Shown here piece after piece: positions 9,201-59,326 of a stretch of DNA of 64,000 bases (its first letter is position 1; every line of letters begins with the position of its first letter). The notes under the pieces are model-generated. The model saw nothing but the letters and a program-made list of their open reading frames with translations, was not told the DNA's origin and did not search any database. The position numbers and the translations under genes are program-made. The DNA is from Bugula neritina (lineage: Eukaryota > Animalia > Bryozoa): assembly GCA_964035545.1 (NCBI GenBank), contig OZ037765.1, positions 32,239,504-32,303,503 on the forward strand, in the 5' to 3' direction.

Positions 9201-9332
9201 GATCGCATCATCACGAAAGTGTTCCGTAAGTGTAAGTGCTGTTCGAAATGCTCCTCCAATGACAGCATAGAAAGTTCTTCAGAAGATTCAACAGATCAAC
9301 ATGAGATGTACAGAGTCAAGCCAGATGTATAG
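3291..9332 (+). CDS. SLC34A: Type II sodium-dependent phosphate cotransporter (SLC34/NaPi-II family), 10 coding exons, ~595 aa
   Basis: GT-AG exons 3291-3323, 5167-5238, 5340-5424, 5825-5956, 6281-6424, 7295-7486, 7644-7762, 7850-7955, 8176-8358, 8611-9332 join in frame (1788 nt). Family hallmarks are present: [19 protein letters not shown], two QSSS repeats ([20 protein letters not shown]), [46 protein letters not shown], and a Cys-rich C-terminal tail. The first three exons are less certain. Confidence 0.95.
5505..5738. repeat. 29-bp minisatellite (~8 copies) in an SLC34 intron
   Basis: Unit approximately CAGTGTACTGTAACATCCCTACAAGACA(C). Confidence 0.9.
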
Positions 9333-9769: not shown

Positions 9770-11120
9770 TTCCATATTATGGATTAATGGCAATTTTTTA
9801 CTATGATCAAAATATAAATTCTTTTTCTACTTTATTTTTACATTTGGAGCGCTAATTTTAAACTCATTTGCTAATGGCTAACCTGCATAGCTCTTTACTA
9901 CTGTATCGTATTGAACAATGACTACTACAAATAATTTTTCCATGTAGTTTAAATTACTATTCATTTTACTTACAATTTTATTTTTCCAAAAACCTTTTTG
10001 TCAAAAAGGGTTATTTTAGTCTAATTGTGAGCTCACTAATGAAGTCTTGCCATTACTAAGTTGATAGTCAAAAATTTAGCTGTGTATCTGAGACGTGTTG
10101 TAAATATTGTTTTGTATATTTTTAACTTTTTCACAATTGTCTGCTCAATATTAAAATGCTTCCACTTGTGCATTCATTAACCAACTGTTCTAATAAATGC
10201 AATAAGAAATTATCTCCCCACACTATATTATAGTTTCTTCTTGTACCAGGTTACACTTCAGGTAAAATTCTTCAATAAGTAAATTAACTTTTTAATTATT
10301 TCGCAGCAATATTTATTGCACACATGCCACTGTTATAATAATAAGTTTGTTTCTATTCAACTCTAATTGTTTCCCTTGTCATGAGAGAGAGCACAACTAC
10401 AGTATAAGATAACTTGTCTACATTAATATTATTATGGAATAATGCTACTTTTTTTCACTACGATCAAAATTTAAATTGTTCTTCTACTCTATTTTTACAT
10501 TTAAAGCATTAATTTTGAACTCATTTGCTAATGGCCAATATGAGTAGCTGTTACTTACTACTGTTGCTTAATAAAAAGTTGCTACTTATAAAACGTAATT
10601 GTTTCAAATAATTTAAGTTACTAGTAAATCTATTTACAGTTTAATTTTGTTTCTTCCAAAAAACCTTTTTGTCAAGAAGGTTTATTTTAATTTATTTATG
10701 GACTGACTGTAGTGTTGAGTTTATCCAGTAGTCTCTGTGGTGTAATGGTTAGCACACTTGCTTGCAAGCCGGAGGTCTTGGGTTCGATTCCCAGTGGGGG
10801 CAAAACAATTTTTCACTGACGAACGAAGTCTTGCCAATACAGAGTTGGTAGTCATATATCTAACTGTTTATCTTGAACATGTTGTAAATATTTTGTACAT
10901 TAAAACTTTTTTACAATTGTCTGCACAACATTAAAGTGCTTCTAATTATGTTTTCACTAACCTTATTTTAATAAATGCAATAAGGAGTTATCTGCCCACA
11001 ATATATAGTTATAGTTTCGTGTCACGTCACACTGCCACTGCACGTAAAGGTTTCCAATAGACAAACTTTCCAAAACAATTTTTATAATTAATTTGTAGCA
11101 ACATTTATTGCACAAGTCAG
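9770..11120. repeat. Diverged local tandem duplication (~9770-10330 vs ~10430-11120) downstream of SLC34
   Basis: Colinear blocks are shared, e.g. GATCAAAAT.TAAATT, AACTCATTTGCTAATGGC, CCAAAAACCTTTTTGTCAA, GAAGTCTTGCCA, TGTTGTAAATATT, CAATTGTCTGC, ATTTATTGCACA. Confidence 0.85.
10708..10814 (+). mobile_element. tRNA-derived short repeat, family 1 (tRNA-Ala(TGC)-like pseudo-tRNA/SINE)
   Basis: GTCTCTGTGGTGTAATGGTTAGCACACTTGCTTGCAAGCCGGAGGTCTTGGGTTCGATTCCCAGTGGGGGCA has D and T arms, but a 6-nt anticodon loop and a wobble-rich acceptor stem. It is flanked by an ACTGAC direct repeat (10702-10707, 10815-10820) and is absent from the paralogous segment near 10030. Confidence 0.75.
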
Positions 11121-12114: not shown

Positions 12115-12265
12115 TGCAATCCATGTCTAGGGGCTAGAGCGCTGGCTTAGTAAACCTGAGATCTTGGGTTCGAACCCCAGTGAAGGCAGTTGGTGATGTT
12201 AAGAAGAGCATTCAGCCATAATTGCCCCTGTGCCACATATGAATAAGTTCTTAACCCATTCTAAC
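12115..12265 (+). mobile_element. tRNA-headed SINE-like element, family 2
   Basis: B-box GGGTTCGAACCCC is followed by the body TTGGTGATGTTAAGAAGAGCATTCAGCCATAATTGCCCCTGTGCC. A second copy is on - at ~31155-31292. Confidence 0.6.
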
Positions 12266-12764
12266 AAAAGCCCTATAATAAAACCTGTTTAATTGTTTTA
12301 TTGCAAATGGCATATTTGATGATAAACTTTGCTCTGGTATATTATATAATTGCTTACTGCAGGACTTTGTTTTTGTACTATTGGTTTTGTAAGCTCTGCT
12401 TATTAACTAGTTTTTTATTATAACTCCAGTTCTCAACTTGAGTTCTCAAATTATTCTTACGTTTTCAGCATCTTCATGATAACTAGTTATAGGTTATATA
12501 TGTATATTTCTATATAACAACTCTTTTTATTGCATATGCCATTTTACTATTTTACAATAATCCTGGTAATTCAAATGTTTGAAATAAACAATAAAACAAT
12601 TTTTTTTCGGAATAAATTATAGTTAAAATTTAAGTTTGAGTAATATCACAAAACTCGACTCTGCTATTTGCAGTACACAAATGCAGTAAAAAGTGTGTTG
12701 AATAGAGATTATTTAATATGTATACTATTTAACTTAGGTAGTTATACTAATAGTTAAGTAAAAT

Positions 12765-13528: not shown

Positions 13529-14992
13529 CTAAGTAGAAGAGACTTTCTGTGGTAAAGCTATGGAGTATATGTCCAGTGAAGACAGGCTGGATGAGTGATG
13601 CTGAAAAGCAGAAGGCACATTCTGTGTCAAAGGTTGTGGTCTAGCATTGCTGAGTTCACTCATAGAATGACTCATAGAATGAGTCATACTGCTGGTCTGG
13701 GAGATTGAAGGTGATTTTGAGTCAATGCTGCTTAACTTTGGAGTATAAATTTCCAAGGAGTAACTTGATGTACTCAAATTTGAATTCATTTCTTCTGCCG
13801 TAAGGGAAGCATCTAAAATACATCAGAAAACTTTGGTAAACATTATTGACGGTTTTTAGCAGTTGAAAAAATAAATTCTATTTAGTGGTACAAACATAAA
13901 GTTAATTAGCATTGATATGCTTATAAATATTTTCAAATTGAGTCTTTAAAGTTTATTACTCAACTTTTAAAACCTACAATATACTTTTTGAAAAAAGTAA
14001 GTGCCAACTTCATTTTGTGCTGGCTTAAGCTCATTTCTCATAAAGATTGTTATAAATTTAATACTGCTGCTAATTTTCCCTTGTTATCACATGCTATAGA
14101 GTTAACAATTATAACATTGTTATAACCAGGCTATTCCGGCTATAATTAGTTTGAAGAATAAAACTATGAATCTCTATATAGCCCTCCATGACTTAGTAGC
14201 TGACAGAACAAGTAGACTTTTGTCTACTTGTATATGGAAGATCAGTAGGCTGACATATTTCATAATAATCTTCATCTTTAGTGTGATAATAAATGGTCAT
14301 CTCTCTTGATAATAAAATAATAACAGCCTAATAAATATAAGAACGGGCTCATTTAAAAACCAAAAGTCTTTTGAACATATAAACATGGTGATGACAAAGA
14401 GGCATTAATGATATTTCTCGATTAATACCACAGGCTTGTTATATATATAGAGTGCAAACTACCCATTCCATAGATTCTTGCTACAATCATCGAAAACTAC
14501 AATATTCAAGTACATTTTCTCGTAGATTGACACATTTGCTTTATTTCCATGTGCATCAAAGCCACATTGAAGTTACTCAGTTTAAATGTATGAAAATTCA
14601 GTATAGTTGGACTCTCTAATGTCTACATTACCATGCTTCCTGCTAGCATATTTAGATTACATCATCATTATCTGTGTATTATACTCACTGCTAACATATC
14701 TGAATTACATCATCAGTATATGTGTATTATACTCACTGCTAACATATCTAGATTACATCATCAGTATATGTGTATTATACTCACTGCTAACATGTACTTC
14801 AACCAGATGTTCTCTGATATCATCTCTTGATCCATGAGAGTTTCCTTGCAGTTTTCTTCGAATCAAAAGAATTAATAACATAACTACAACTATGAATGCT
14901 ATTGCAGATGGAACCCCAAACAAGACCGATATAACCACTCTTGCAGCTTGAGGATCAACATTAGAACTGTCGATATAGCCAACAAGCACCAT
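13529..14992 (-). CDS. Orphan single-pass (type III-like) membrane protein, cluster gene A, ~163 aa
   Basis: Exon 14785-14992 (ATG just after a ttgtag acceptor; TM VVISVLFGVPSAIAFIVVVMLLILLI then RRK; donor A|GTGAGT) joins in phase 1 to exon 13529-13812 (ttttag|; Ser-rich tail with SLEIYTPK, RPQPLTQNV, SSLSSLDIYSI). The tail is clearly paralogous to that of gene B. Confidence 0.75.
14636..14792. repeat. 48-bp tandem repeat (~3 copies) spanning the gene A splice donor
   Basis: ATACTCACTGCTAACAT recurs at 48-bp spacing (donor dinucleotides at 14687-88, 14735-36, 14783-84). Confidence 0.9.
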
Positions 14993-16925: not shown

Positions 16926-17898
16926 TCAACAGGAGCTGGAGGAGAAAACTCCTGGTATGGAGTGGATGTCAAGAGATGACAGACTGGAAAGGCTGTACTG
17001 GATAGAATGTACATTCAGTGTCATGGGTTGAGGGTCAGCGTCAGTGAAGTCACTGCGGCAGCTGGAAAGACTGGCGTTACAGTTGTAGGACATCAACGAG
17101 CTACCAGATTTGGGAGTATAAATCTCAAGGGATAGACCAGAGGAATCCAAATTTGAACTTAATTCTTCATGCGCATTTACAAATTCACCTGAAAATATTT
17201 AAAGGAAATTTTTTTAGAAACATGAATAATTATCATGGAACAATTTTTTGGTTATAGTAATTTAACTGGTCGATCAACACTGAAAATTTGTTATTTGTAG
17301 CCTATATACAATTGGTTAAACTATAATTTATATATTATTATCTCAAAATTACTGAACCAATAGCTATAAAATCACTTAGTTGTTATCTGGCAAATTTTTG
17401 ATTCCTTAAAATTTTATAAATTTATCTAGTCTATATATATTTGTAACAAATTAGAGGACGAAAATAAACAAAAGTTTCTTATAAACTAGCATTAACTGTG
17501 ATAAAATAGGTTTTTCACAAACTCTGTTTAGATAAAAATATTGTGTGCTAAATATTAAAAGATGGCTCAAACCTGCAAATAGCAGTTATATTTAATACAA
17601 TTTTAATAGATTCTTAAAGAATGTAAAACTCTTATACACATGAGATGATTATCATAGATGCTGGTACTATTGCACTTTGTCTATATCTGTATATATACTC
17701 ACGGGCTTCAAAAGGAACACTTTTTGACAATCTCATTCCTGCCTTTTGACTGGTTCTTAATTCATGGATGGCAAGGAAGACCAAGCATCCTGTTAGCAAG
17801 GAAAGAGACACTCCAATAAACCACCAAAGTTCAGTTTCAGACGGGAAGGAATTTCTATAGTCGCTACTTTCAAGCAGATCTAATGTCGGCACATACAT
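16926..17898 (-). CDS. Orphan single-pass (type III-like) membrane protein, cluster gene B, ~152 aa
   Basis: Exon 17703-17898 (MYVPT..., TM LWWFIGVSLSLLTGCLVFLAI, donor C|GTGAGT) joins in phase 1 to exon 16926-17188 (ttttcag|; LSLEIYTPK, DADPQPMTLNVHSI, SLSSLSSLDIHSI). Confidence 0.75.
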
Positions 17899-18635
17899 CT
17901 TTCTACAGAATTAGAAATAAAGTTTTAAACTTTTTTTTATAGGGAATTTAAAGCTTATACTCTTTCTGTTGAGCATAAGGTGATATGCACTGAGAAAAGT
18001 TTTTTTATAAAATATTATATACAAGCAAAAATGGGAAAAAATATATCGTATTGCAATTCTGCTACATTTACATATAGTAAATCATAATTAGATATTTTAA
18101 CTTTATTTCCAAAATGTACATAAAATGTTTTGTTGAAGATAAACCTTAAAAGATCTTGCTGCTTTATGATAAACACACTGCTTTAAAGCATTAAACTGTT
18201 TTGATAATAAGTAACTGACCATATAAACTTTTCTCTCACTGCACATGCCAGTTACCTCAAAGCTGTAGCAATCTGATCAACATGCAATAACTTCCCCAGT
18301 CTACTAGTTAATCATATACATTCACTCAATATATAGAAGCATATTATTTTCCCTTTGTGTGTGATTATATAAGCATCCGCATTCATAACTAATCCAAAGA
18401 CTACAACACAATAGCAGTTATTGATTTATTGAGTATGGAGCAAAGATGGGGGAAGCAAATTTTTCCAGTTTCCCTTATACAAAGGCTAAAAGGGGAAACG
18501 GAAAAATCTTTATGCATTGCTGTGCTTTTGAAAAGACAACTCTAATTTCCAAGTGCTGAAACTTTCAAAAGAAAGAATTTCACTAACAATGCTTACCATA
18601 GAAAGAATACACAAATTGCAATTTATTGTTCTGTG

Positions 18636-19595
18636 GGGGAAACCTGGGTGATATGGACCACTTAAGCCCACAGCCCATACTGACTATGGTTGATTGAAAA
18701 TTAGTATTTCAACATGTGGGTGCTATCTCTACTGACATACAAACAGAATTTGAAGCTCCTATATACAGATGCTTAACTGAGCTATAATTGAAAATTGGTG
18801 GACCATATCACCCGCAGATTTTTTGATATTTTGATGATATGGGCCACCACAGACTCACTCACATAAAGTTAGCTTGTTTGTGTTGAAAATGCACTTTGCT
18901 ATATTAAAAAGTAATATAAAGCAACAGATCTGCAATAAGTGTGTAACAGCTTCTTTTAGTGCCTCTTCACTCCAAGCATTTAGAATATTGTTGGAACAAG
19001 ATCCTGGCATCTAAAATACATTGCATGAGTATGAATAATTCAAGTACACATTCTACTGCAACTGGCTATAATGCTGTCTAATCAATATTTAGGGATTTAA
19101 GGTTTCAGCATTGTTTGAAATACTATAGTGTTACATTTCCCCAAACAAGTAAATGAAAAGAAAAATTCAATTGGCTGAGTGATAGGGTCCACGGTCGATA
19201 TTACCCCCCAAGTGGCGGTCCATATCACCCAAAAATCATGGCACCAAAAATTTTGAATTCCTACAGACTGAGAGTGGACAAGTATTTTATATACTATTTG
19301 GATATTTATACATACCTTCTGCACAATATCTGTAGATACAGGCTCCTTACTTAAGGTAATTTTTTTCAATGAAAATAGATCCACAAAAGTTGTGAAAAAT
19401 TATAAGAAAATGAGCAAAAAGAGAAAATGTGTCCTTATTTTCTTAGACAAAAAGACAAGTTTGAAACATGTAGACAGGAAGTTAGATATTCCTATCTCCA
19501 TACAATAAGACACTTCAACTTTCTGGTAACCTTGGATACTGCAAAACATGCATGGTCCATATCACCCGGGTGGTTCATATCACCCAGGTTTCCCC
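18636..19595. mobile_element. Non-autonomous DNA transposon (~960 bp) with ~25-bp TIRs and a TA-type target (Tc1/mariner-like)
   Basis: TIRs GGGGAAACCTGGGTGATATGGACCA ... TGGTTCATATCACCCAGGTTTCCCC are flanked by TG and TA. Internal copies of the GGTCCATATCACCC motif occur at ~18800, 19215 and 19555. The element is absent from the duplicate copy. Confidence 0.85.
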
Positions 19596-19911
19596 TATGT
19601 TTCATATATAACCCTAGCATTAGCACATCTATAAGAATAGGTTTTACTATGATGTAGTAATTTTGCTGCTGTTATTAAATGCTATCCAAACATTTGCAAG
19701 TATTTTAGACACTATATGATACAAAAATTATCAAGCTGTTAATTTAGTGAATTTTGCAGAGAGATTTTAGCTTGTATGATAGTGCAAGCATAGAAAGCAG
19801 TTTCAAAAACAAACTGGGGTATGTTAAAGTGCTTAAAAATAGTGTAGGAAAAGATGTGTAGCAACAAAACTTGATTTGTTTGTTGATAATTTATAGAAAT
19901 AATTTATGGAA

Positions 19912-19914
<3 letters not shown>

Positions 19915-19980
<66 letters not shown>

Positions 19981-19996
19981 TATATACTGTATATAT
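19915..19996. repeat. (TA)n microsatellite
   Basis: Directly visible. Confidence 0.95.
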
Positions 19997-22315
19997 ATCT
20001 CAATCTGTGGACAGCAGCTGTTTCGGGATTTGTCCCCTCATCAGCACAGAACAGAGTACCATGGCCCACACCTTCGCAATAGTAGAAACTTATAGTTTTA
20101 CTAAAGCTACATTTACATAGTTACAGATCATATGATTAGACTTATAACATAGTAAATCATAATTAGATATTTTAACAATTTATTTTAAAAATGCATATAA
20201 GAAGATTTTTTTTAAATAAACCTGAAAATAATTTGCTAATGGTGATAAACACGCTACAATAACTTTAAAGTAATTAACTATTCTAATGATAATGATAACT
20301 ACAAAGATTTATTAAAATGTAAACACAAATAACTGACCATATAAACTTTTCACTCACTGCACATGCCAGTTATAACCTTAAAGCTGCAGCAAGCTGATCA
20401 ACATGCAATAACTTCCCCAGTCTACACGTTAGTTATCAATATAGAGGCATATTATTTTTCCTTTGTGTGCGATTATATAAGCATCCGCATTCATAGCTAA
20501 TCCATAGACTACAACACAATAGCAGTTATTGATTTATTGAGTATGGAGCAAAGATGGGGGAAGCAAATTTTTCCAGTTTCCCTTATACAAAGGCTAAAGG
20601 GGAAACGGAAAAATCTTTATGCATTGCTGTGCTTTTGAAAAGACAACTCTAATTTCCAAGTGCTGAAACTTTCAAAAGAAAGAATTTCACTAACAATGCT
20701 TACCATAGAAAGAATACACAAATTGCAAATAATCGTTCTGTAGGCCTATGTTCCATATATAACTCTAGCATTAGCACCTCTATAAGAGTAGATTTTACTA
20801 TAATATAAAAATTTTGATGCTTTCCAAACATTTTAGACACTATATGATACAAAAATTAATTTAGTGCATTTTGCAGAGATATTTTAGCTTGTGTGATAGT
20901 GCAAGCATTATAGAGAACAGTTTCCAAAACAACCATGCAGGGTATTTTAAAGTACTTAAAAATCATGTAGGAAAATAGATGTGTAGCAACTTAAAACCTA
21001 ATTTGTTCGTTGATAATTTATAGAGAAGTATATTATATTTGACTTTCTGTAGAATTTGAATTTGGGATAAATTAAATAGTGAAAAGAAAACTTTTGAAAC
21101 TTTAAAAATATCCTATGATAGAAAGCTATAAAATGGCTGTACATGACATATTACTGAGAGAAAATATTACATATAATTACTTATATTTAGTAAATATAAG
21201 ACCAGAGGTTTTTTTCCTATACTTTGAGCACATATACAAACAACTGCACAACAGCCGCTTTAAATGAATAGCTAACAAATATTTTAGGTATAGAATCTTA
21301 CGTATAAAATTTTTGCTTTCAAGTGTAATACAAAACAGTATCGGCATTATTTGGTGCATTCGTGACTCATTTTAAAAGGAAAAAAAGCAAACAACTTCTC
21401 TGACTCATAATCAACACTTCAACAGTATCTTCTCTGTTGTGAACTATGGCTAAAGTTTATATAATATGCTTTCATTTTCATGGCATTTGACCGAAATCTA
21501 GTATAACAGAGGCATGGGAGATTACTCCTGCTAAAACTATTGATCTAATTATAAAGAGCAGACGGTACCTTCAAACATGCCAAGTTATATGGCTAGTTCA
21601 AGGTGAAGGTCATACATCGTATTTATCAATAAAATAGTTCATTCTACTCTTTTACGACTAAATAACTTTATACTGTAAAACAGGCATAAGTGCTAGAAAG
21701 TTCTAGCTTGGCTAACGAAATAATTGGGAATTTGTATCAATGAATCATTGTCTCCACTTATCGAAGGTGTGTGGCTCAAAGTACTATATATTTATATTAT
21801 ACAGTGTTTATTTATAATGTGAGAATTTCATTTATTTTTATTAATTGTTGCACATTTGTTACATGTTTGTACAAAACTTATGATAAGAACTATAAACACA
21901 ATCTTTGCTGAAATATAACTGATATGAGATATCTAATTATTAGCAGAAAAGAAATTAAATTGGAATTTAGTTTTCTATTTTTGCACATCATATTGTAACT
22001 CAAAAAGTTGTAATTTGTAAGCTTGATTAATTGTGCTATATCTAAACGTTTTTGTTTTATTTACAAATTTAAAAGCATTTAATAATTTTCATAAAAACAA
22101 AACAAACTATATATGAAACATTCAATTAAATTGTTTTAATGAACGGCAAGCAGAGCTGAAAAGCTAAAAGAGCAAAGCCAAAAAGAAAAAGATCAAGTAA
22201 AATAACAAAAGCAATCAAATTGTATCTTTATAATTATATAAATAACGACAGAGATAAGTAGTGTAATGATGTCTTTCAAGGTGAAGGTCAAAATTGCATT
22301 GTTGTTACTTTTTTT

Positions 22316-24050
22316 TTAATCCATTACCTCAAGCTTCAATGACTTTGGGTCTGCATCACTAAACATACTGTGCTGCTTAGAATGAAGGGAGCGTGTTGAA
22401 CGTCCGCTAGATGAGTTGATGGACCGAATAGACAGTGCCAAACTGCTAGAAGAATCTGAATCAAAAGCTGTTTCCTTTACCATAGACTCATCTAAAATTA
22501 ACAATTATTTTAAAATAATATGAGCAATTGTATTTTAAAACTATGCCACTCATGCATAATCTGTGATGAGAGACAGTTTATATACATAAATATAATTCAG
22601 CAAAACAAAAATTGAATTCTTTTCGATATTTTTGGAAACAAAATCATGTGTTCTTACTTGTGTCGATTTTAATGTCAGTTAATGTTGTTGGAAGTCTACT
22701 TGGATCAAAATTATCTGCAACATACAAGTTTATAACTGGTATTATGGTATATTTGTTTTAGAAATAATTAACCTAAATCAAGGTATAAGAAATGCTACAT
22801 ATAATGATGGTGTTGTACATGCACTCAATATATATCTAAAACCTATATAGCTAGTTATATTTCATACTGTAAAGTGGTTCTTGCACTCTTACTATACTTA
22901 CTATTTATTGTGGGTTCTGTTTGAGGGTTGATGTTGAATTTGAAGAAGTATATATAAAAAGAAACTCCTCCAAAAATTAAAACAGCCGATAGCACAACTA
23001 GGCTTATAGTCCATAGTGCAGGTTGGGATATTGTTGGTGCAACGGTAGATTCACCAGCGTCTTTTGGCTTTAACTTCTTACCAGCATTATTAAGAAATCT
23101 GTTTATCTTAAATTTGAGGCTGCAGTGTAGTGGTACATTATAAGTTGGAAAAGAGGCTGTGTAATTAGTGGTATAACCTAGAAAATGGTCTACAATCACA
23201 ATCAAAACACTGTGTCAATTGTCTGCACAGGTTTTTACTTTATTATAGTATTACAGGTACATATTAATTTTGTTTAAAAATATTAAAGCGGTGCTTATGA
23301 AAAAAGTTATAACACATTTGATATACTATAGTTAATGAGAAAAATTTTACACCTATATAAACTTCTAAATCTCTTCTGTAATATTCATATAGACTGGAAC
23401 TCTATCTTGTTAAAATCAATATGTTGCTACTAAGTAATTTGTAGTCTGCAAATGTTAAATTTTATGCTTATATATTACTCCAGTACACACACACAAACAC
23501 ACAAATTCTATCTGCTATTCACAAAATAATATATCAAATGTTTTACACTTCCAAGTATAATACCAACAGTAAAGTTAATTCATTGATGAGCCCAGCAGTA
23601 AACTAAGCGCAGGGGATCTGAAAGCCTCATATCGACCAAGTAATTTTGTGGATGCAGTCCAAGTGAGATTTTTACATAGAAAACTAGTGTTTGCTCCAGC
23701 GTACTAAGTATAACTAGTCCTAGTCACATGCAGTAAATTAAGCTTTCATAGAAAGGAAATTGTTAGAACATAGCATAAACTAACAAAATTGGATCCTTTT
23801 AATACTGAAAAGATTGTATATGACCAAATAGTAGCTAGTGTATCCAGATCAATACTATACTGAATATAGCATAGCTTATTACGTTTCTTACCATGTTGAT
23901 TTCTGTAGCAAATATCCTTATATGGAAACTCCAATTCTGCACCATCTTCAGCCTCTTTTATAGAGGAATATAACTGGTATTGCAAACTCAATCGACATAG
24001 TATAACTAACAATAAAAGTGTTTTGATAGTTTGTTGAACTTTCTGTGACA
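22316..24050 (-). CDS. Orphan type I membrane protein, cluster gene C, ~207 aa (start uncertain)
   Basis: Phase 1-1 exon 23892-24050 (signal-like TIKTLLLLVILCRLSL; donor G|GTAAGA), phase 1-1 exon 22902-23189 (N-glycosylation sequon NYT; TM LWTISLVVLSAVLIFGGVSFYIYFF; donor A|GTAAGT), and terminal exon 22316-22491 (SSSSLALSIRSI, SDADPKSLKLEVMD*). The last two exons are better supported than the first. Confidence 0.65.
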
Positions 24051-26944: not shown

Positions 26945-27806
26945 CTAATTACTGTAATCTATTGAATGAATATAGAGGGAAAGTGAAGAGCTACTAGATC
27001 TCGTGGCCTTCATATCACTGCAGGAGTCAAGTGAATGAATATTAAGAGACAGTCCAAAAGAATTAAAACTGAGGGAACCTCTTCTTTGAGAATTAGCCAA
27101 TGAGCATTGAGTATTGCTTCTCGAACTTCGGTTTAGCAAGTCGTCAGTACTTCGGCTCTTTTCACTAACCAGCATCAGGTCATAAAATTCCTCTGAAACC
27201 AAAATGTAATTTTTAAAGTTGAGAAAAATTTGAAGATTTCAGATTTAAATTTTTTTTTAATAGTATTTTAGCTCTAAAATGTTCAACTATATAATAATTG
27301 CATTAAAATTTTACTTGACCTGTTACATTCCTGCTAGCTCTTATAGTTAACCTACTGTATGTATATGAATTATATTTATAAGAATGCAAGTATAATGTAA
27401 ATTATAATTAGAAAAACCTGAAAGACTTTAAACTTGTAAACCTAACACAGTATTATAACATATGTGTATAGTTTTCTTAGTTTATGTCTCATTTGTATAA
27501 CTATATAAAGTCATTAGTCATAGTTTAATTTGGAGTGGAAGCAGTTCATATATAAAAGTAAGTTTTTAAGCATTTGAAACTTGACAAACTGTATTGATTT
27601 AAAACACTCACTTTTCAAACTTCTCGCATTCTCTGTTGTCACTTGATTTTCGTTGCCATGGCAATTTCTTGCACTCCAAAAATATTTGAAAAGAAAGACC
27701 AAAGAAGAGACTCCATGCACATATATTATTAGTAACAAAATGATTAAAATTTTATTGAACTTTACGTCTTCTTTCAACTCATCTAGAGTTTTTTAATGTT
27801 TAACAT
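26945..27806 (-). CDS. Orphan single-pass membrane protein, cluster gene D (5' end frameshifted or incomplete)
   Basis: TM exon ending at 27612 (ILIILLLIIYVHGVSSLVFLF; donor A|GTGAGT) joins in phase 1 to exon 26945-27192 (tttcag|; EFYDLM, GLSLNIHSL, SSSSLSLYIHSI). The ATG at 27806 is out of frame by 1 nt across an A6 run. Confidence 0.6.
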
Positions 27807-28818: not shown

Positions 28819-31800
28819 TTAATATGAGCCACTGTACTCAGGTGCAGGATGACTCGGCAATAAAGAATGTCTGTTTAAACTAGTGATGCTTTCTTCTGGT
28901 TGATTTACGCTAGCATAGTCAGAAGGTCGTAATGAGTCTGGAGATGTTGGTAAGTATAGCAGGGGAGCAGGTAAACTAGAGGTAGTTGAGGAATGGAGAT
29001 CATCTCCCCTCTCTTCACTGACCAATGAAGGAGTGCTGCTAGTAATTGTCAGGTCTTCATTTTCTTGAGGATCTTCAAAGTCTTCTGAGATTAGTGTGAG
29101 TTGATCTTAAAACAAAATTTCTATCAGTTAGGAAAAAAATTTGGGAGAGTTAATTTTTTATCTTGGAATTGAAAAAAATCATTAATTAAGAATAATATTT
29201 TACATAGCAGGGAAGACGTTAATGTAGAAAAATGACTATATAATCACTATGATCGAGATTGAATTAATACTCACCTTCATTTCCCAGGTTAAGTAATAGG
29301 GAGTCAGTAAATGCTCTGACGTTCTGGTTAGGTGATGGAAAGTATTGCTGGATCACAGATAGTTGTGCTTACAAAAACAAAAACTTGCAGATAACAGCAA
29401 AATACATCATGGTTGTCCGTTGTAGGCAAAGCAAAAAATTCTATGACAGATTTTTTTGTGGTGAAGCTGAATTTCCTGTATATCCTAACAGAGGCAATGA
29501 TTTCAAGGGAGAAAATTTAGCAAATAAACAGTCTAAACAAACCTGTTAGTGCTTCCCATCTCCTTTGATATCCAGCATAAGAGCGACAGAGTATGACAAT
29601 AACCACAATAAGCAGAAGTATGATAACTCCACACAGTACTACCGGTATTACAGAAATGATAGGATTTTTACTGTTTAGCGGAAATGTTGCCTCTTCTTGT
29701 ATATGTAGTTTGTCTTTTTCAAGCATACAGCTGGAAGCTCCTGCATAAGGATATAAGCTCATGAAATTTCTTTCATAATTAAGGTTCTGAATTAAATTCA
29801 TTAAATGCATTGTCGGCGCAGTATCAAGGTTATGAACTGCAAAGAGAGATATAGTAAATTAACCGAACAGATTTAATAAGCTCACTGTTACCGCCCTTTG
29901 GGTAACCGTATTTTCTTTGTGACTATTAATCCCTTGCAGCGCTCCAATTTCGGTTCAGTCGGACACCCGAAATAGTTTGGGGGATTCCGGATTTGGGTGC
30001 CCGATGGGCGATCGGACACCCGAATCCGGGCCGAAGATCACAAGCCTATAATACATTCTGATTGACGGACCACACTCTGATTCTGCTCTCTTTCATAATT
30101 ACTTTGAGATAATGTTCTAGCATTGGTTCTACTGACTCTACACCTCAGTAATTTTAGTGCACAATTTGTTTTAAAGTTCTTGTGTACGAAGGAATTTATT
30201 TAATAAATAAAGCAAATACTAAGCTACCATCCTTTAGCTATTTGAATAATTTTAGAATACCTTCATATGCCCACAAAGGTGAGTTTCTTACAATACAGCA
30301 TCTACCCATTTTGCAACTGTATCCTTTAAGCTGATGAGATCCATGTTTCCTTTCAATTGAATATTTGATTTTAATTGAGTGTAATACCATGTCTACAAAG
30401 TGAACAGGAGAAATCTTGTCTGTAATACATCAACTGCGGGACTAATTAGTTTTTAACAATATGAAGTAAAAAAATAAATTGGAGATATTACAAAGTAAAC
30501 ATGAACAAACTTCTTCTAAGATACCAAACAATGAAACATTTATAGCAAATTTTTGTTCGCAATCTATAATCATTGTATCAGCACGGATGCTTATGTATTG
30601 TGATTCAATCAATGGAGAGTGGATATGGATGGAGGACACATAAGCAGGCCACAACTCTACTTTTTGTCTATTGCCAACAGTATATTTCTCACAAAACTAA
30701 AATTCAAACTCCTACTTGAACTTGAACTCAAGCTCGAACTTGAACTTAGACTTGAACTTGAACTGTAACAATTATTTTGACAATTAAGTATAAATTGCCT
30801 GCATCTTTATAGCAGGAGGGAAATTGAGCTACACCCACTCATTGAGCAAAAACTGTCAGTAAATAGCTATCGCGAAAGCTTTCACAAAAAGCTTCTGATC
30901 GTTACACAATGATTTTCTGAAAGCTACCAAAAAACTCCTGCAACAATCATTAAATTATATTACCAAATTTATTTATTTAAATTTTAAAGTATATATATAT
31001 AGGTATACTGACTTATTTTAGAAAATTAATTAGTATTATAGGTAAATAAAAATAAAAATAAATAACAGTTATGAACCTCACAAAAGTTTATAGTCACCAT
31101 CCCCGTGAGAAACCCCTGATGAAAATAAAGATTTTTTTTGTTAAATCGGGGTAAGGACTTATTCAGATGAGGCACAGGAGCAATTATGACTATAGATGCT
31201 CTTTCTAACACCACCAATGGCTTTTACTGGGGTTTGAACCCATGACTTCGTGTTTATTAAGCCTGTGCTTTAATCTCTAGACTATGGCTGCTCCCAAAAT
31301 AATATAATTATGAGCCTAACTCAAATAAAATCTTCAATGATATTAAACTTTACTGAATTCGCATTGTAACTTTAGTAATAAATAGCTAATAAAGTGTAGG
31401 CTTATTCCTATATCATTATAACAAACTAAACTTGGGCAATCTTTATTAATTAAAGATATGGTTTTTTAAAATGCTGTCGAAGTGGCTGAAAATTTTATCA
31501 TTGCAATTTAGGGTTGAAAATTTGTCAGCAAAAATACTGAAACCAATATACTAGCATATATATGCATTTGCAGTAATAAAACACTTGCATGCTGCTCATA
31601 TTATATATAATTAGCTAAGGTGACTGCCATATGTTATTAACTTTAAATTGCTGGAGGTGAAAATTAAAAAAAAGGTAACATAGAAAACAAGCTTATATAC
31701 AGATCAGTCAAAGAAACCTGAAATTTGAACAAAAATTAGTTTGGAGCAAATAAATTTGTTTTAAAACATAACAAAATAAACTAGCTGAAGATGGCTATTT

Positions 31801-32296
31801 TTTATAGCTTGCGGTATAAATCTTAATGTTTTAGAATGCTACTCAATTCAATTGAGGACATAATTTATGCAACAGACCAAACTTGAATAGGTTTGGCTAG
31901 TAGTAATGAGTGTGTTTCTAGCATTAAAAGCCCATAATTTCAAGAAGCCCAAATATTTGCTTTCAGAGTTCAAAGTTTTCTTAGCATTATGCTAGAATTT
32001 GAAATTATGTCCACCGCTAAAATTTACTATAATAGAACTATATTTTTACATATTTTACATATACCTATATGATAATATACATGTATATAATATGCACCTT
32101 CAAAGAATGACTTTTCTGTTGACTTAACATCCTCAAAGTTGTCATACTGTGAATTTAAAGGCGTACAGAATTCATCTGCAGAATTAGCCTGGAAGTTACA
32201 TCTTAAAAGTTCATAGAAATACTCCATTTCAGTACATTCATGGCCACAGGCTACTGATAGAAGTAGCGGCAGGACAAGAATTAGTCTGGGTCCCAT
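28819..32296 (-). CDS. Orphan type I membrane receptor, cluster gene E, 5 exons, ~334 aa
   Basis: Exons 32098-32296 (signal MGPRLILVLPLLLSVACG; CTEMEY..C..C), 30261-30392 (..CKMGRCC..), 29543-29836 (stalk plus TM IISVIPVVLCGVIILLLIVVIVILC), 29275-29367 and 28819-29105. All introns are GT-AG and phase 1; total 1005 nt open. Confidence 0.75.
29930..30048. mobile_element. GC-rich DNA transposon end fragment in an intron of gene E
   Basis: Direct and inverted TCGGACACCCGAA sub-repeats ending in GATCACAAGCCTA; composition is unlike the flanks. No partner TIR found. Confidence 0.45.
31155..31292 (-). mobile_element. tRNA-headed SINE-like element, family 2
   Basis: The reverse complement contains GGGTTCAAACCCCAGTAAAAGCCATTGGTGGTGTTAGAAAGAGCATCTATAGTCATAATTGCTCCTGTGCC, matching the 12.1-kb copy. 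Confidence 0.6.
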
Positions 32297-33821: not shown

Positions 33822-36800
33822 TTAATACGAGCCACTGTACTCAGGTGCAGGGTGACTCAGAGATAAAGAATGTCTGTTTAAACTAGTGATGCCTTCTTCT
33901 GGTTGATTTACCATAACATAGTCAGAAGGTCCTAATGAGTCTGGAGATGTTGGTAAGTATAGCAGGGGAGCAGGTAAACTAGAGGTAGTTGAGGAATGGA
34001 GATCATCTCCCCTCTCTTTACTGACCAATGAAGGAGTGCTGCTAGTTATTGTCAGGTCTTCATTTTCTTGAAGATCTTCAAAGTCTTCTGAGATTAGTGT
34101 GAGTTGATCTTACAACAAAATTTCTATCAGTTAAAAAAAATTTTGGGAGAATTAATTTTCTATCTTGGAATTGAAAAAAAAATTCCGCTAAGAAAAATAT
34201 TTTGCAAAGCAGAGAATTGAAGTTAATGTAGAAAAATGACTATAATTACCATGATCGAGATTGAATTAATACTCACCTTCATTTCTCTGGTTAAGTAATA
34301 GGGAGTCAGTAAATGCTTTGACGTTCTGGTTAGGTGATGGAAAGTATTGCTGGATCGCAGATAGTTGTGCTTAAAAAAACAAAAACTTGCAGATAACAGC
34401 AAAATACATCATGGTTGTCCGTTGTAGGCAAAGCAAAAAATTCTATGACAGATTTTCTTTGTGGTGAAACTGAATTTTCTGTATAACATAACAGAGGCAA
34501 TGATTTCAAGAGAGAAAATATAGCAAATAAACAGTCTAAACAAACCTGTTATTGCTTCCCATTTCCTTTGGTGTCCAGCATAAGAGCGACAGAGCATGAC
34601 AATACTCACAATAAGCAGAAGTATGATAACTCCACACAGTACCACCGGTATTACAGAAATGATGGGCTTTTCACTTTTTGGCAGCAATATTGCCTCTTCT
34701 TGTAAATGTAGCTTTTTTTCTTCAAGTGTATAGCTGGAAGCTTCATAAGGATATAAGCTTTTGGATTCTTCACTTTTTAGTGGGTCTTCACTTTTTAATG
34801 AGTCTTCACTTTTTAGTGGCAATACTGTCACTTCTAGTGAATCTGGTATTTCGAAGTCCTCTTCAAGTGTATAGCTGGAAACTTCATAAGGATATAAACT
34901 CGTGCGATCTTCCTCATAAAGCTCTGCACTGAATTCATCAAATGGGACAACCCCAGTATCAAGATCATAAACTACAAAGAAAAATATAATAAATTAATAA
35001 AACAAACTAAATAAGCTCTAGCATTGCTATTGGCACAATACTGAGTCTCGCCATTACCTCCTGTTGGGTGATACCCCCATGTTATCTACTTTCTAATTAA
35101 ACATATTGATGGAATTTAATATAACAAAACAAAAAGTTTTAAGCAAAATAAGAATGCTCCAACCCCCCTATATATATACACACTTTGCCCCACTGTAGGC
35201 CGTAATGTAAATTGTCAGCCATTTTTAATGTGTCTGGGCTGAAGTTTTCAAAGTGCGCTATTGGGTACGATCTATGACACCTCATTGGACATTTATATCC
35301 AATGGATTCATTAAGAGCCCTTTTTTTAATCAAGCAGTGCTTGATTCAAACATACTGTAACCGTACAGGAAGCTTGGACATTTGTAAAAATGGCTGGCAT
35401 TTTATGCTACGGTCTACGGTGCGCAAAGTGTGTCTATATATATAGGGGGATAGACTTTAACAGCTGTTGTTATCAGTGACTATAATATACAGTCAGAACT
35501 ATCTATTATTTTGTTTTAAAATACTAATTAGATTAGCTAGGTATCATTTTGAAAGACGTATGCAGTTGGACTCATTGTTATGGCTAACAGAACTAGCTAA
35601 AAGACTCGTCACGAAATTGTTTAAAAAAGCTGTATGGCAAAATGAATTTCAAATAGAATAGAGTTGAGCTAGAGATTTCTAAACTCAGGTCTTATAGTGC
35701 ATGAGATATTAAAACTCTATAATTAGCTAAAAAGTGCAGTACCACAAAACAAACGAAACAGTGAAATCAGCAAACAAAATATTGATTAAACAGAGACCAA
35801 GTAGCCTACAGATCATTCAGTAGAACGAAAGTTATTGAATTATGTGAAAAAGGGCAGATAATCCTTAACAAGATTATATAACCAAAGTAAATCATACTAA
35901 TAGGATATTGTAGTAACTCCAAACATTGCAAAGCAGGGTCAAGATTTCGGCACTATAATAACAAATGGCTGTGGTAACCAAAAATGATACATGAAATGCC
36001 CCAAGCTCCCCAAATCTGCTACATATATTTAATTGCATATTTTCAAAATTAAATCTTCAAAATTTAGGTATATTTGCTTATTCTACAGCTATAACTTACT
36101 TAATTTCCAACTATTAATTAGTTTTTGTAAATATTGATTTCAGATTCCATAATTGATGACAAGCCCAGCAGAGCTTATAGCACTTTTCCAAAGTTGTAAA
36201 CCCTGATTTTAAAGCAGAAACACACTGCTATGTCTACGGAATGCAAAAGAGTAAAAAACTCACTCCTTACTTTACTCCCTATTATATGCTCACAATAAAG
36301 TATGTATAATCTGCTCCCGTTATATATACTTATCATTCATACTTTTAGGTCTATTATTTAGTCCATACCCTTATTTTTCTTTCTGCTATGCTCCATAGCT
36401 ACCTATAGCTATAACTACTCATAGTTAAAACTATACTGACTTGTGAGTTAAAACATGTATACAGCTATGAGCTCTTCATATATATTGATATCAGCCTAAC
36501 TGTAGCTAGTTCAAACATTTGTTCATGCAGGGCTACCCCCTCTTATTTTAATGTAATATGTTAAGAAACGTAGTTATGTGTGTTGTATGTTAACTATCAT
36601 GCAGCGCTTAACTTTTTGTGTTTCAACAACTTATTGAAGAAAAGGACATGTTTATAATAGTGCGTTACGAAATACTATTCCACTATCTCACATGTTTGAA
36701 TTTGGATAATTTAACATAAATACTGATAACTAACATAGTTACTATAATAGTAATAGTTATATTCTACCTCTTACTGGTGAAGCATTATTTTTTAGTCATT

Positions 36801-37218
36801 CAGCATATTGCGATGAAAGCTTTGAAAGGTAGCCTAATTTTCCTACCTCTTTAGTGTACGGGATGCTCTGATTGATCTGGTGTTTTTCCATGTATTTGTT
36901 TGTCTACAGTTAAACTGATTTTGAGTTGAGCAGATGAACTGGCTCAGAGTGGTTTCCATGTATCAAACTGAGTGAACTGCTGAACTGAGAATTATACATG
37001 GAGACTCGGCACTCACCATGCAGAGGCTTGCCATCATCATTTACTATGTGTGAGAAGTCGTCCCATTTTTTGCAAACAAATGAGTCATCTTTATTGCTAT
37101 ACTCCACCTGCTCATGAGAATGTTCCTCAATGGTACATTGATCTCTACAGGCAGCTGACATAAGTAGCAGTTGCAAAACTAAATAGAGAAATGCTTGTAT
37201 GCTTTTTCTTGTCGCCAT
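33822..37218 (-). CDS. Orphan type I membrane receptor, cluster gene F (paralog of E), at least 4 exons, ~335 aa
   Basis: Exons 37017-37218 (signal AFLYLVLQLLLMSAAC; CTIEEH..C; donor G|GTGAGT), 34546-34971 (acidic repetitive stalk plus TM), 34277-34369 and 33822-34108. All introns are phase 1; total 1008 nt open. The last three exons closely match gene E. Confidence 0.75.
35164..35449. mobile_element. MITE with ~65-bp imperfect TIRs in an intron of gene F
   Basis: CCCCCTATATATATACACACTTTGCCCCACTGTAGGCCGTA..CAGCCATTTTTA vs TAAAAATGGCTGG..TACGGTCTACGGTGCGCAAAGTGTGTCTATATATATAGGGGG. Confidence 0.8.
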
Positions 37219-39117: not shown

Positions 39118-41740
39118 TTAATTGCTGTTGTTTAGCATGTAGTTACTGTTGTTTAGCATGTAGTTGCTGTTGTTTAGCATGTAGTTACTGTTGTTTAGCA
39201 TGTAGTCCCTGCCAACTGGCAGACATGGTAAAGAGTGGATGTTCAGTGAAAGAGAATTAGACTTGTGAAGACAGTCACAACTCAGGTCGTGTCTGAGGGG
39301 CTGAGGAGAACTGCCAGCAGACCAGCTGCTGCCGGAGTTGGTGGATGCAGTTGGATGGTTGAGACTGCCAAGACTGGATCTGAGAGAGTAGATGAAGATG
39401 GACAGGCCAGATGAAGATCCATCAGAGGAACGCCAGCTGGTTCTGTAAGAAGTTTGAGGATGGTGTTCTGGTACGCCAGTCATGAAAATCCCTGAAGTGG
39501 TTTCCTCAAACTTCATCAGTTTTTTTAACTGATCAGTTTTTCTCACTGCAACACATTTCAATGAGTTTAGGGGGATAATCAAATGAGATTTATAGCATTT
39601 TAGACCTTAAAAACATTGTGCAGTATTTCAGTAACTTTTAACATGGAGATCAAGTCATGTTGGATAAAACTTTTGTTTGCATTCCCAACTAAACTTTTGT
39701 AACTAAAACCAGAACATTAGAACTGCAATTAAAATTTAAAGCAGTCAATAGTTTCAAAAAATCACATCCAATTTTAAAGCTTTTCGGAACACATAACTTT
39801 CCACCTTTTATTTGGTTAGTTTTGTGTTATTCACTACACATACTTCCCATGGTCTATAGCAGATGCTCGCAGGGATAGATTTGTGGTTTCATCTGATTGA
39901 CATTGCTCCCACCATGAGTGAAAAATTCATTCCATAATGCTAGTTTGGGAGTTGCAATAATGTCAACTAGAGTTCGTTGCTATACCCATTAACTATAACT
40001 AGTATAGATGTGAATCATGCTTCCAATTGTTATGGTCATAGTCAGCATCTATATATAATATTGTCATAGTTCTTGCTAACAGTTAGTCTGTATAGATATA
40101 GATTTGTCACCACAATTTATATTTTTCCTCCTACTCGTGTTACCAGAAAGATACTGATATTTATTAAGTTTACAACTTATATGGTATAAACTATAACATA
40201 TACTATGAGATCATGCATATACACTGTGTTATAATAATTTAAGCTAATAAATTCTAACTTCCTAATTATTTTGATTTATGTAATAAAACCTATTTGTAAA
40301 AGTACTAGCTATAACTTTTCTGTTGCATCTGGGTTTATTTGTGTTATTGTTATGTACTTGTTTTCATCTTGTTATAGGTTATTATAAGGTCAACATCAAT
40401 TCAGCATTACAGAAGCTACAGACAGACTCTTGCACTTTGCTATATACCTGTTTTGTGTTTTCAAGCTGAAAATTAGTTAATTGTTGCTTTACCTGCATGC
40501 ACTGGTATTTGGGAAAAAATAAAATTTCCTTAAACTTCAATACATTCAATATATATAATTGTTGACAATCGATAAAAGCTGTCTGTTATCTAAACCAAAC
40601 TTGCCTTGTCTTAAGGTTATATGCAGGAACTAAACCTTTCGAGTGGCCCATCTAGACTAAATAGTATGACTCACCCCCAGACAAGCAATGCTGTCTTTAA
40701 AGTTGTTTCAATGGCCATAATATTATTATAAGCAAAACTATAGAGATTACCATGAATAATGATGGTGTATTTGTCATCATAAATAGTGCAGTTATTGTTG
40801 AAAAAAATCACAGATTGCCGTGACTACATTTTATTGCAAGGTAAGTTAAACAGTTGACTGCATAACATATTGCAATAACCTTACTATACTCTTATAACAG
40901 ACAGCATTTAATAGTTGGGCAATTCCAAGTTCTATTGAAGAAAATGCGTTTAAAATTAGCAATTCACAGAAAGGTTATTTGCGATACTGCATGTTTAAAG
41001 TAAGACAACTTCTTTGCAACAGCTTTATGTTAACCTGAGTGTAAATTGCGGCATTTTTCGAGCAATTTTTATTGAATCTTGGATTAAATGATTATGGGGC
41101 CAGTGCCATTAATTGTCAACAAAATTTTTTCAATGCCCAAAAAGCCTATAACATTCAATTAGCTACATGAGCAGTTATATCCATGAAACACCAAAACTTT
41201 AATAAAATATTGCAACACTATCCACAAAGTATAACTTTTCAAGTGAATGGGTGAAAGCTATATTTAGCTTGTGTTACAGCTGCATGAAAATTGTAATGTT
41301 ATACAACACTGGATTATACCATGACTCATAAACAATGACTCAGGCTGATATAATTTCTACAGGGAAGTGTATGTTATACTAAGAGTTAAGAAAGCTCACA
41401 ATTTATAAATAGCTGAGAAATTTGATAGCTGATACTAATTTTTTGACAAAAATGAAACATTCTTAAACAAACAAATTTTAGTTCTGAAATTACCTCATGC
41501 AGTGACGTGTTGTTATAGTTATAAACGCATTGTAATGAGTAGGTAACACAGCCATGAAAACATAACATATCTATTAGATTAGAGAACATTCTGAAAAGAG
41601 TACAAGTGACCTTGCAACATATACTCACCAGAGCAAAACCAAGGTTTGATGCTTCTCTTCTTGAGAATTGTCAGCGTAGCAAACATCAGCATGATGGTGC
41701 CACAGGGAGCCAACAGGATGAAGGCCCACTCCCAAACCAT
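39118..41740 (-). CDS. Orphan single-pass (type III-like) membrane protein, cluster gene G, ~179 aa
   Basis: Exon 41629-41740 is below the ORF-track cutoff and encodes MVWEWAFILLAPCGTIMLMFATLTILKKRSIKPWFCS with donor G|GTGAGT. It joins in phase 1 to exon 39118-39545 (ttgcag|; SSGLSIFIYSL, SSPQPLRHDLS, SLSLNIHSL, (YMLNNSN)x4). Confidence 0.72.

Positions 41741-43680: not shown

Positions 43681-59326
<15,646 letters not shown>

What the first reader, a model, noticed from the sequence alone, without database searches (positions are those of the whole stretch)
39286..39306. STING-like TBK1-binding motif (PQPLRHD) between the two LxIxS motifs of gene G, with variants in A, B and C
Seen: G has SSPQPLRHDLS, A has NARPQPLTQNV, B has DADPQPMTLNV and C has DADPKSLKLEV. 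Each lies ~25-40 aa downstream of the first LxIxS motif. Established: the vertebrate STING C-terminal tail carries pLxIS followed by PLPLRTD (PxPLRxD), which binds TBK1, and most invertebrate STINGs lack this tail. Inference: these proteins may be stand-alone membrane-anchored equivalents of the STING tail, coupling a TBK1/IKK-epsilon kinase to an IRF. The same motif order supports this, but a short motif match can arise by chance.
Basis: partly seen in the sequence, partly recalled or inferred. Interest (0 to 1): 0.8.

Follow-up and report, generated by a model that had tools for sequence, protein, structure and literature searches.

The report
STING-like tail on bryozoan membrane proteins
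A moss animal (Bugula) has a cluster of small, fast-changing predicted membrane proteins whose inner tails keep a short motif that, in one of them, closely resembles the site where vertebrate STING grips the antiviral kinase TBK1, so they may be surface receptors wired to that kinase, though binding is untested.

Summary
The motif is real: PQPLRHD at 39306-39286 (minus strand), in the serine-rich tail exon of one of seven tandem single-pass membrane gene models. Close relatives are Bugula neritina hypothetical proteins.

It is constrained. PQP[LM] persists in A, B and G while the spacers have randomised. A relative of C keeps its version 13 of 13 against 19 of 37 elsewhere. A second G haplotype changes only the free position. 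G matches the STING TBK1-binding core (shuffle p about 0.002) and keeps the three residues shown to matter.

But 0 of 7 tails meet the full STING consensus and 0 of 7 have a canonical pLxIS; the serine sits one place later. D lacks the motif, and A, B and C do not match STING significantly. In B and C the motif reads as a third copy of the LxLxIxS repeat. No G ortholog, RNA, or Bugula TBK1/IRF sequence was obtained.

Best reading (about 1 in 3): a likely kinase-docking site recruiting TBK1/IKK-epsilon to phosphorylate the flanking repeats. Nearly as likely: a repeat copy that resembles STING by coincidence.

The parts
39286..39306 (-). Gene G middle motif PQPLRHD (the finding); matches PxPLRxD
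   Evidence: a second haplotype changes only the free position (Q to K) plus one silent site
39385..39399 (-). Gene G first LxIxS-type motif (IFIYS, followed by Leu)
39232..39246 (-). Gene G last LxIxS motif (LNIHS, followed by Leu)
39118..39545 (-). Gene G tail exon (predicted; phase-1 acceptor, ends in a 21-bp coding repeat and stop)
41629..41740 (-). Gene G predicted first coding exon: ATG, signal-anchor helix, basic residues after it, phase-1 donor
   Evidence: inferred, no RNA
13529..13812 (-). Gene A tail exon: LEIYT 13756-13742, PQPLTQN 13639-13619, LDIYS 13576-13562
   Evidence: same model as B. neritina EB796_001511 and EB796_001512
14785..14992 (-). Gene A transmembrane exon (short outer part, helix, juxtamembrane)
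16926..17188 (-). Gene B tail exon: LEIYT 17129-17115, PQPMTLN 17033-17013, LDIHS 16973-16959
17703..17898 (-). Gene B transmembrane exon
22316..22491 (-). Gene C tail exon: LSIRS 22435-22421, PKSLKLE 22348-22328, then stop three residues later
   Evidence: relative P0128
22902..23177 (-). Gene C transmembrane exon; candidate upstream exon 24042-23892 has no start codon of its own
26945..27192 (-). Gene D tail exon: LNIHS 27046-27032 and LYIHS 26977-26963, no Pro motif
27612..27782 (-). Gene D transmembrane exon; no start-codon exon found between it and the stop of E
28819..32296 (-). Gene E (exons 32296-32098, 29836-29543, 29105-28819): signal-peptide-like start, Cys-containing outer part, helix, tail with LTITS, PAPL, PDSLRPS, LNRHS
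   Evidence: tail not significantly similar to A-D or G
33822..37218 (-). Gene F (exons 37218-37017, 34971-34546, 34108-33822): recent duplicate of E in helix and tail, divergent first exon

Best explanation
PQPLRHD is the gene G version of a conserved short motif, P-x-[PS]-[LM]-[RKT]-x-[DNE]-hydrophobic, in the tails of a tandem family of predicted single-pass membrane proteins of Bugula, and it likely serves as a docking site for an IKK-family kinase (TBK1/IKK-epsilon), which would then phosphorylate the flanking L-x-I-x-S repeats to recruit an IRF-type or similar reader. Shown: the motif, its conservation, the open exon structure, and variable outer and membrane parts on a near-constant tail in the A-type genes. 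The motif probably arose from a middle copy of the LxLxIxS repeat, so any likeness to the STING tail would be convergent, not inherited.
For: G scores 25 of 44 against the STING 8-residue motif, shuffle p 0.0017; 1 of 32,628 six-frame windows reaches 23 or more. G keeps the equivalents of P371, L374 and R375, whose mutation is reported to disrupt signalling (PMC11796124 passages); PxPLR is named as the TBK1 motif in PMC7733315 (passages). In A, B and C the best STING-like window is the same position. Spacers between A, B, C and G share 0-4 of 19-23 non-serine positions while PQP[LM] is kept in 3 of these 4. The C relative keeps 13 of 13 motif-to-end residues against 19 of 37 elsewhere, Fisher p 0.0016. 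The second G haplotype leaves P, P, L, R, D intact among 8 listed differences. The motif Ser/Thr is followed by a hydrophobic residue in 8 of 11 copies (six tails, F left out as a duplicate of E) against 46 of 127 other serines, p 0.024; TBK1 requires this +1 residue (PMC3408500 passages). Molluscs have TBK1/IKK-epsilon and IRFs. A-type genes differ 14 of 18 in the outer part but 3 of 89 in the tail, a receptor-like pattern.
Against: Full consensus (D/E)xPxPLR(S/T)D met in 0 of 7 tails; canonical pLxIS in 0 of 7. A, B, C and the two B. neritina copies are not significant matches to STING (p 0.08-0.17); D, E and F are not matches by best window (p 0.76-0.83). The Arg is kept only in G and in one of two candidate sites of E. 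The eight residues after P-x score as a copy of the LxLxIxS repeat in B (p 0.0002), C (0.007) and A (0.04), which explains the Leu, acid/amide and hydrophobic positions without TBK1. The -2 residue of the serines is Ile, not the Phe/Tyr that TBK1 prefers, and all IKKs share the +1 preference; the copies are homologous, so p 0.024 is generous. Shrimp and oyster STING are reported to bind the kinase without this motif, so nothing shows that invertebrate TBK1 uses the pocket. No STING chain appeared at E up to 10 in PDB sequence searches. The STING match was looked for after the fact, among 6 independent tails.
Confidence: 0.33

Rival explanations
1. The motif is a degenerate third copy of the LxLxIxS repeat with a Pro in front. 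All copies would bind one phospho-dependent partner, giving multivalent docking, and the match of G to STING is coincidence.
For: The middle eight residues rank 3 of 80 windows in B, 2 of 51 in C and 5 of 87 in A against the repeat profile. D has two repeats and no Pro motif. C and its relative keep PKSL, not PxPL. Only 1 of 7 tails has PxPLR.
Against: In G the middle eight residues do not score as the repeat (p 0.26, rank 26 of 110), yet PQPL is kept. The Pro in front of the middle copy is invariant in the six-tail alignment and absent before the other copies, which suggests a separate role.
Confidence: 0.3
2. The tails are CK1/GSK3-phosphorylated beta-catenin-binding elements, like those of cadherin tails and the APC repeats, and would tune adhesion or Wnt signalling.
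For: A and B carry SSLSSL a short way after the Pro motif, and E/F a similar stretch. The likeness to cadherin and APC is recalled, not from a call.
Against: No Pfam family for 7 of 7 tails at E up to 1 or for 6 of 6 motif segments at E up to 10. No cadherin or APC chain in PDB searches at E up to 10. These searches are weak for short motifs. The conserved Ile-x-Ser after the stretch is unexplained.
Confidence: 0.1
3. The motif is inherited from a common ancestor without present function, and some of the genes are decaying fragments.
For: No start-codon exon was found for C or D. A transmembrane-like segment with a stop lies at 40675-40780. E versus F tail pN/pS is about 0.8. The G haplotypes differ by 5 replacement and 3 silent listed changes.
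Against: All 7 models are open with phase-1 introns throughout. Motifs are kept while spacers randomise. B. neritina has two annotated intact A-type genes with the same junction.
Confidence: 0.1

Closest known systems
Vertebrate STING C-terminal tail (pLxIS plus TBK1-binding motif)
   Same: Membrane-anchored disordered tail; a Leu-x-Ile serine motif followed by PxPLRxD (G); in C the motif is at the very end of the protein, as in STING.
   Different: One predicted helix, no cyclic-dinucleotide domain; serine one place later than in pLxIS; 24-34 residues between motifs instead of a few; a further LxIxS after the motif; acidic residue at -2 and Ser/Thr before Asp missing; most paralogs lack the Arg.
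pLxIS adaptors (MAVS, TRIF)
   Same: Serine-rich linear motif with L-x-I; E and F have a pLxIT.
   Different: Canonical pLxIS in 0 of 7 tails; no Pfam domain of any kind found in the tails or other exons at curated cut-offs.
Transmembrane adaptor proteins of lymphocytes (LIME1, LAT type)
   Same: Short outer part, one helix, long disordered tail (A, B, G); LIME1 appears among weak Atlas look-alikes at 0.89, a lead only.
   Different: Signalling motifs are serine-based; a YxxL/I/V/M motif was found in 1 of the 4 tails computed.
Hydractinia Alr allorecognition genes
   Same: Tandem cluster of variable membrane proteins in a colonial animal.
   Different: Alr genes are described as immunoglobulin-superfamily (search listing only); these have tiny outer parts with no Ig domain; no link to fusion or rejection is shown.
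Bugula neritina EB796_001511 and EB796_001512 (hypothetical proteins)
   Same: Same two-exon model as gene A; about 90% identical tail; PQPL kept.
   Different: Uncharacterised; no annotated counterpart of G was found.

Membership tests
STING TBK1-binding motif | PxPLR core | tested here: met
   Met in G only, 1 of 7 tails; core as named in PMC7733315
STING TBK1-binding motif | Full consensus (D/E)xPxPLR(S/T)D | tested here: not met
   0 of 7 tails; G has Ser at -2 and His before Asp (consensus from PMC9343627)
STING TBK1-binding motif | Residues equivalent to P371, L374, R375 | tested here: met
   All three in G and in E's PDSLR; Pro and Leu/Met only in A, B, C, F; none in D (residues)
STING TBK1-binding motif | Directly follows the pLxIS site | tested here: not met
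   24-34 residues after the first LxIxS; in STING it follows immediately
STING TBK1-binding motif | Binds the groove between the kinase and scaffold domains of the TBK1 dimer | not testable with these tools
pLxIS adaptors (STING, MAVS, TRIF) | Hydrophilic-Leu-x-Ile-Ser | tested here: not met
   0 of 7; pLxIT in E and F; the others are L-x-I-x-S/T
pLxIS adaptors (STING, MAVS, TRIF) | Serine phosphorylated by TBK1, then binds an IRF | not testable with these tools
   Only the +1 hydrophobic preference could be compared: 8 of 11 against 46 of 127
STING protein family | Several transmembrane helices plus cyclic-dinucleotide-binding domain | tested here: not met
   One helix per model, plus a signal-like peak in F; no STING Pfam family among 17 cluster segments scanned; model of P0125 is one helix and coil
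Cadherin/APC beta-catenin-binding motifs | Match to the Pfam families or solved chains | tested here: inconclusive
   No hits, but short-motif sensitivity is low; the likeness is recalled
Invertebrate allorecognition receptors | Polymorphism of the outer part that predicts fusion or rejection | not testable with these tools
   Outer and membrane parts vary among three A-type sequences; no phenotype data

The most novel reading that the evidence does not exclude
Bryozoans independently built a STING-tail-like TBK1-IRF signalling module and put it on a tandem family of variable cell-surface proteins with interchangeable phase-1 exons, giving a colonial invertebrate direct membrane-to-IRF signalling for immune or self/non-self recognition, with a shifted LxIxS code in place of pLxIS.
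Probability: 0.17. Interest if true: 0.85.

Novelty: new variant of a known kind. Interest (0 to 1): 0.5.

Why it matters
The STING tail with its IRF and TBK1 motifs is described as a vertebrate feature, yet molluscs and shrimp signal through TBK1/IKK-epsilon and IRFs. How invertebrate adaptors dock these proteins is open. If the G peptide binds TBK1, it shows the docking groove is used outside vertebrates and by proteins unrelated to STING, and it gives a short peptide test. Even if not, the cluster is an uncharacterised receptor-like family of a colonial animal, with variable outer parts on a conserved signalling tail, and a candidate for bryozoan immune or self-recognition. My searches found no paper on it.

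Tried and rejected
No whole genome is held, so TBK1, IRF and further paralogs could not be sought in it.

No RNA holder listed; this is no evidence on expression.

G tail against the 5.8-billion protein set: 1 candidate, none scored (64-205 residues only). Metagenome scans: 430 pattern matches for G and 39 for A, none confirmed. The seven-tail alignment had no stretch conserved enough for that scan.

Profile search of 1.84 billion representatives: 4 hits. I dropped 2 as unrelated, a snail repeat/kinase protein and a 1203-residue repeat protein.

PDB sequence searches gave nothing relevant. Atlas search with P0125 gave only generic single-helix look-alikes; the Atlas search with the G tail did not complete.

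No complex was predicted, for want of a TBK1 or IRF sequence. No fold search was run, since the model is one helix plus coil at mean pLDDT 59.

Earlier findings: nothing in three look-ups.

The primary structure papers on the STING-TBK1 and IRF3 complexes and one pLxIS paper are not held; the consensus comes from a review and secondary passages. No supplements were opened.

Considered and dropped from recall only: calcineurin PxIxIT, CtBP PxDLS and RHIM amyloid motifs; spacing or composition does not fit.

Full report
Setting. The window is intron-rich animal DNA of about 32% GC; no whole genome is held. An SLC34 phosphate-transporter exon (plus strand, 8562-9332) and an L3MBTL-type gene (minus strand, MBT, zf-C2HC and SAM domains, ending near 43684) flank the region. 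Among the top SLC34 hits the bryozoan Watersipora has the highest identity, 72% (only proteins of 449-2000 residues searched). The genes in question have near-identical relatives in Bugula neritina, so the window is from Bugula or a close relative.

The observation. PQPLRHD is at 39306-39286 on the minus strand, and the A, B and C variants are as quoted. They lie 24-34 residues after the first LxIxS. PxPLRxD occurs once in the six frames and in at most 4 of 5000 shuffles of the G tail. Two corrections: C has one LxIxS and stops just after its motif, and the flanking motif is L-x-I-x-S, one residue off the vertebrate pLxIS, which occurs in 0 of 7 tails.

Anatomy. Seven minus-strand models (A-G) between 13.5 and 41.7 kb each have a transmembrane exon and a terminal tail exon. 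All read open, all introns are phase 1, and tails are 74-153 residues with 25-32% Ser+Thr. A, B and G start just before the helix, with more basic residues after it than before. E and F have an extra first exon with a signal-like start and cysteines. No start-codon exon was found for C or D, so they may be alternative cassettes or fragments. These models are inferred: the one run that holds the stretch is not on record as RNA. B. neritina EB796_001511 and EB796_001512 are annotated with the same junction as A. AlphaFold gives P0125 one helix (residues 14-49) and an unstructured tail. No tail matches Pfam. Tails A, B and G are clearly related (0 of 1000 shuffles), C and D more weakly, and E/F are not significantly similar to the rest (p 0.24-0.78), so their membership rests on position and layout.

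Range. A profile of the seven tails over 1.84 billion representatives gave 4 hits: 2 family members and 2 that I dropped as unrelated. A word-based search added the second B. neritina A-type gene and a C relative, 4 hits among 7,991 candidates scored. No G ortholog was found. The only named relatives are from Bugula, but short motifs in low-complexity tails are hard to detect at distance.

Is the motif constrained? Yes. Spacers between A, B, C and G share 0-4 of 19-23 non-serine positions, yet PQP[LM] persists in A, B and G. The C relative keeps 13 of 13 residues from the motif to the stop, and 7 of 8 of the first repeat, against 19 of 37 elsewhere (p 0.0016). Both B. neritina A-type genes keep PQPL, but their whole tails are about 90% identical to A, so this says little. 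A second G haplotype at half depth in run X1 has 12 differences; of the 8 listed, two fall in the motif, one at the free position (Q to K) and one silent. That run may be the window's own source, and 4 differences were not shown.

Is it a TBK1-binding motif? The consensus is (D/E)xPxPLR(S/T)D, directly after pLxIS (PMC9343627, passages). PxPLR and L374 are named in PMC7733315 (passages), and P371, L374 and R375 in PMC11796124 (passages). G keeps these three and scores 25 of 44 against the STING 8-mer (p 0.0017; about 0.01 over six independent tails). It lacks the acidic residue at -2 and the Ser/Thr. In A, B and C the best window is the homologous one but p is 0.10-0.17; D, E and F do not match by best window, though E has a PDSLR. 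By membership it is not a canonical motif. By function it may still work like one in G.

The main alternative. The eight residues after P-x resemble the flanking LxLxIxS repeat in B (p 0.0002), C (0.007) and A (0.04), but not in G (0.26) or E/F. The Leu, acid/amide and hydrophobic positions that look STING-like are therefore partly explained by internal repetition. What is new in the middle copy is the Pro, invariant in the six-tail alignment (the E/F register is ambiguous). G needed only a few changes from this background to reach PxPLRxD, so the match is less improbable than the shuffle suggests.

Independent hint for an IKK-family kinase. The motif Ser/Thr is followed by a hydrophobic residue in 8 of 11 copies against 46 of 127 other serines (p 0.024); the two first copies of A and B are Thr-Pro instead. 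TBK1 requires a +1 hydrophobic residue but prefers Phe/Tyr at -2, where these have Ile, and all IKKs share the +1 preference (PMC3408500, passages). Oyster and Aplysia have TBK1/IKK-epsilon, and oyster has working IRFs (PMC5869526, PMC9334734, PMC8218723, passages). Shrimp and oyster STING bind the kinase without the vertebrate motif (10.1101/2022.12.18.520954, passages), so use of the groove in invertebrates is unshown. I obtained no Bugula TBK1 or IRF sequence.

Receptor-like evolution. The two B. neritina A-type genes share 4 of 18 outer residues, 14 of 26 in the helix and 86 of 89 in the tail. The window's A has an outer part like one (15 of 18) and a helix like the other (20 of 26), which points to shuffling. 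E and F are 91% identical over 1.66 kb but have very different first exons. This fits immune or recognition receptors with a fixed output, but does not name the pathway.

Mechanism, with steps marked. Shown: conserved motifs on predicted membrane-anchored disordered tails. Inferred: clustering through the variable outer or membrane part, docking of TBK1/IKK-epsilon on the Pro motif, phosphorylation of the LxIxS serines in trans, and recruitment of an IRF-type reader. I give this 0.33, the repeat-copy reading 0.30, a beta-catenin-binding reading (recalled likeness, no hits) 0.10, and loss of function 0.10; the remainder is other partners.

Novelty. Searches for the motif in invertebrates (0 papers), Bugula with TBK1 (4 unrelated), bryozoan immunity and allorecognition showed no description of this family in the listings. 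Most subscription papers are not searched. It is not STING and not a pLxIS adaptor by definition; if the reading holds it is a convergent variant of the STING tail module. Interest 0.5.

Noticed in passing
window 14785-14992 (-), with P0125 and P0127: Gene A is a mosaic: outer part like EB796_001511 (15 of 18), helix like EB796_001512 (20 of 26), tail nearly constant. Suggests recombination or conversion among receptor copies.
   Followed up: partly
window 40675-40780 (-): A second transmembrane-like segment inside the G intron, with a strong GTGAGT donor but an in-frame stop; possibly a decayed alternative first exon. The other haplotype differs here by 14 letters and 3 gaps.
   Followed up: partly
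window 27612-27782 and 23892-24042 (-): D and C have no start-codon exon of their own; since all introns are phase 1 they could be spliced to first exons of upstream genes.
   Followed up: partly
window 28819-29105 and 33822-34108 (-): E and F tails begin with a dileucine-like DQLTLI and carry pLxIT and a YxxV motif; tail pN/pS about 0.8, stalk pN above pS (0.19 against 0.13, 32 codons). Motif labels are recalled.
   Followed up: partly
window 39125-39206: 21-bp tandem repeat (3.9 copies) encodes the last residues of G; the haplotypes differ here.
   Followed up: no
window 14139-14296 (-): An open stretch in the A intron with an acidic tyrosine cluster; not part of the B. neritina model and no strong donor found.
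   Followed up: no
window 54921-55804 and 57538-58413: 884-bp inverted repeat at 97% identity around about 1.7 kb; looks like a DNA transposon with long terminal repeats.
   Followed up: no
window 10731-10802; 12121-12269 and 31136-31287: A tRNA-like element with an unreadable anticodon, and a dispersed repeat with very high contig depth near 31 kb; probably tRNA-derived SINEs.
   Followed up: no
window 18074-21024: A duplicated, apparently non-coding block (78-83% identity) between B and C.
   Followed up: no
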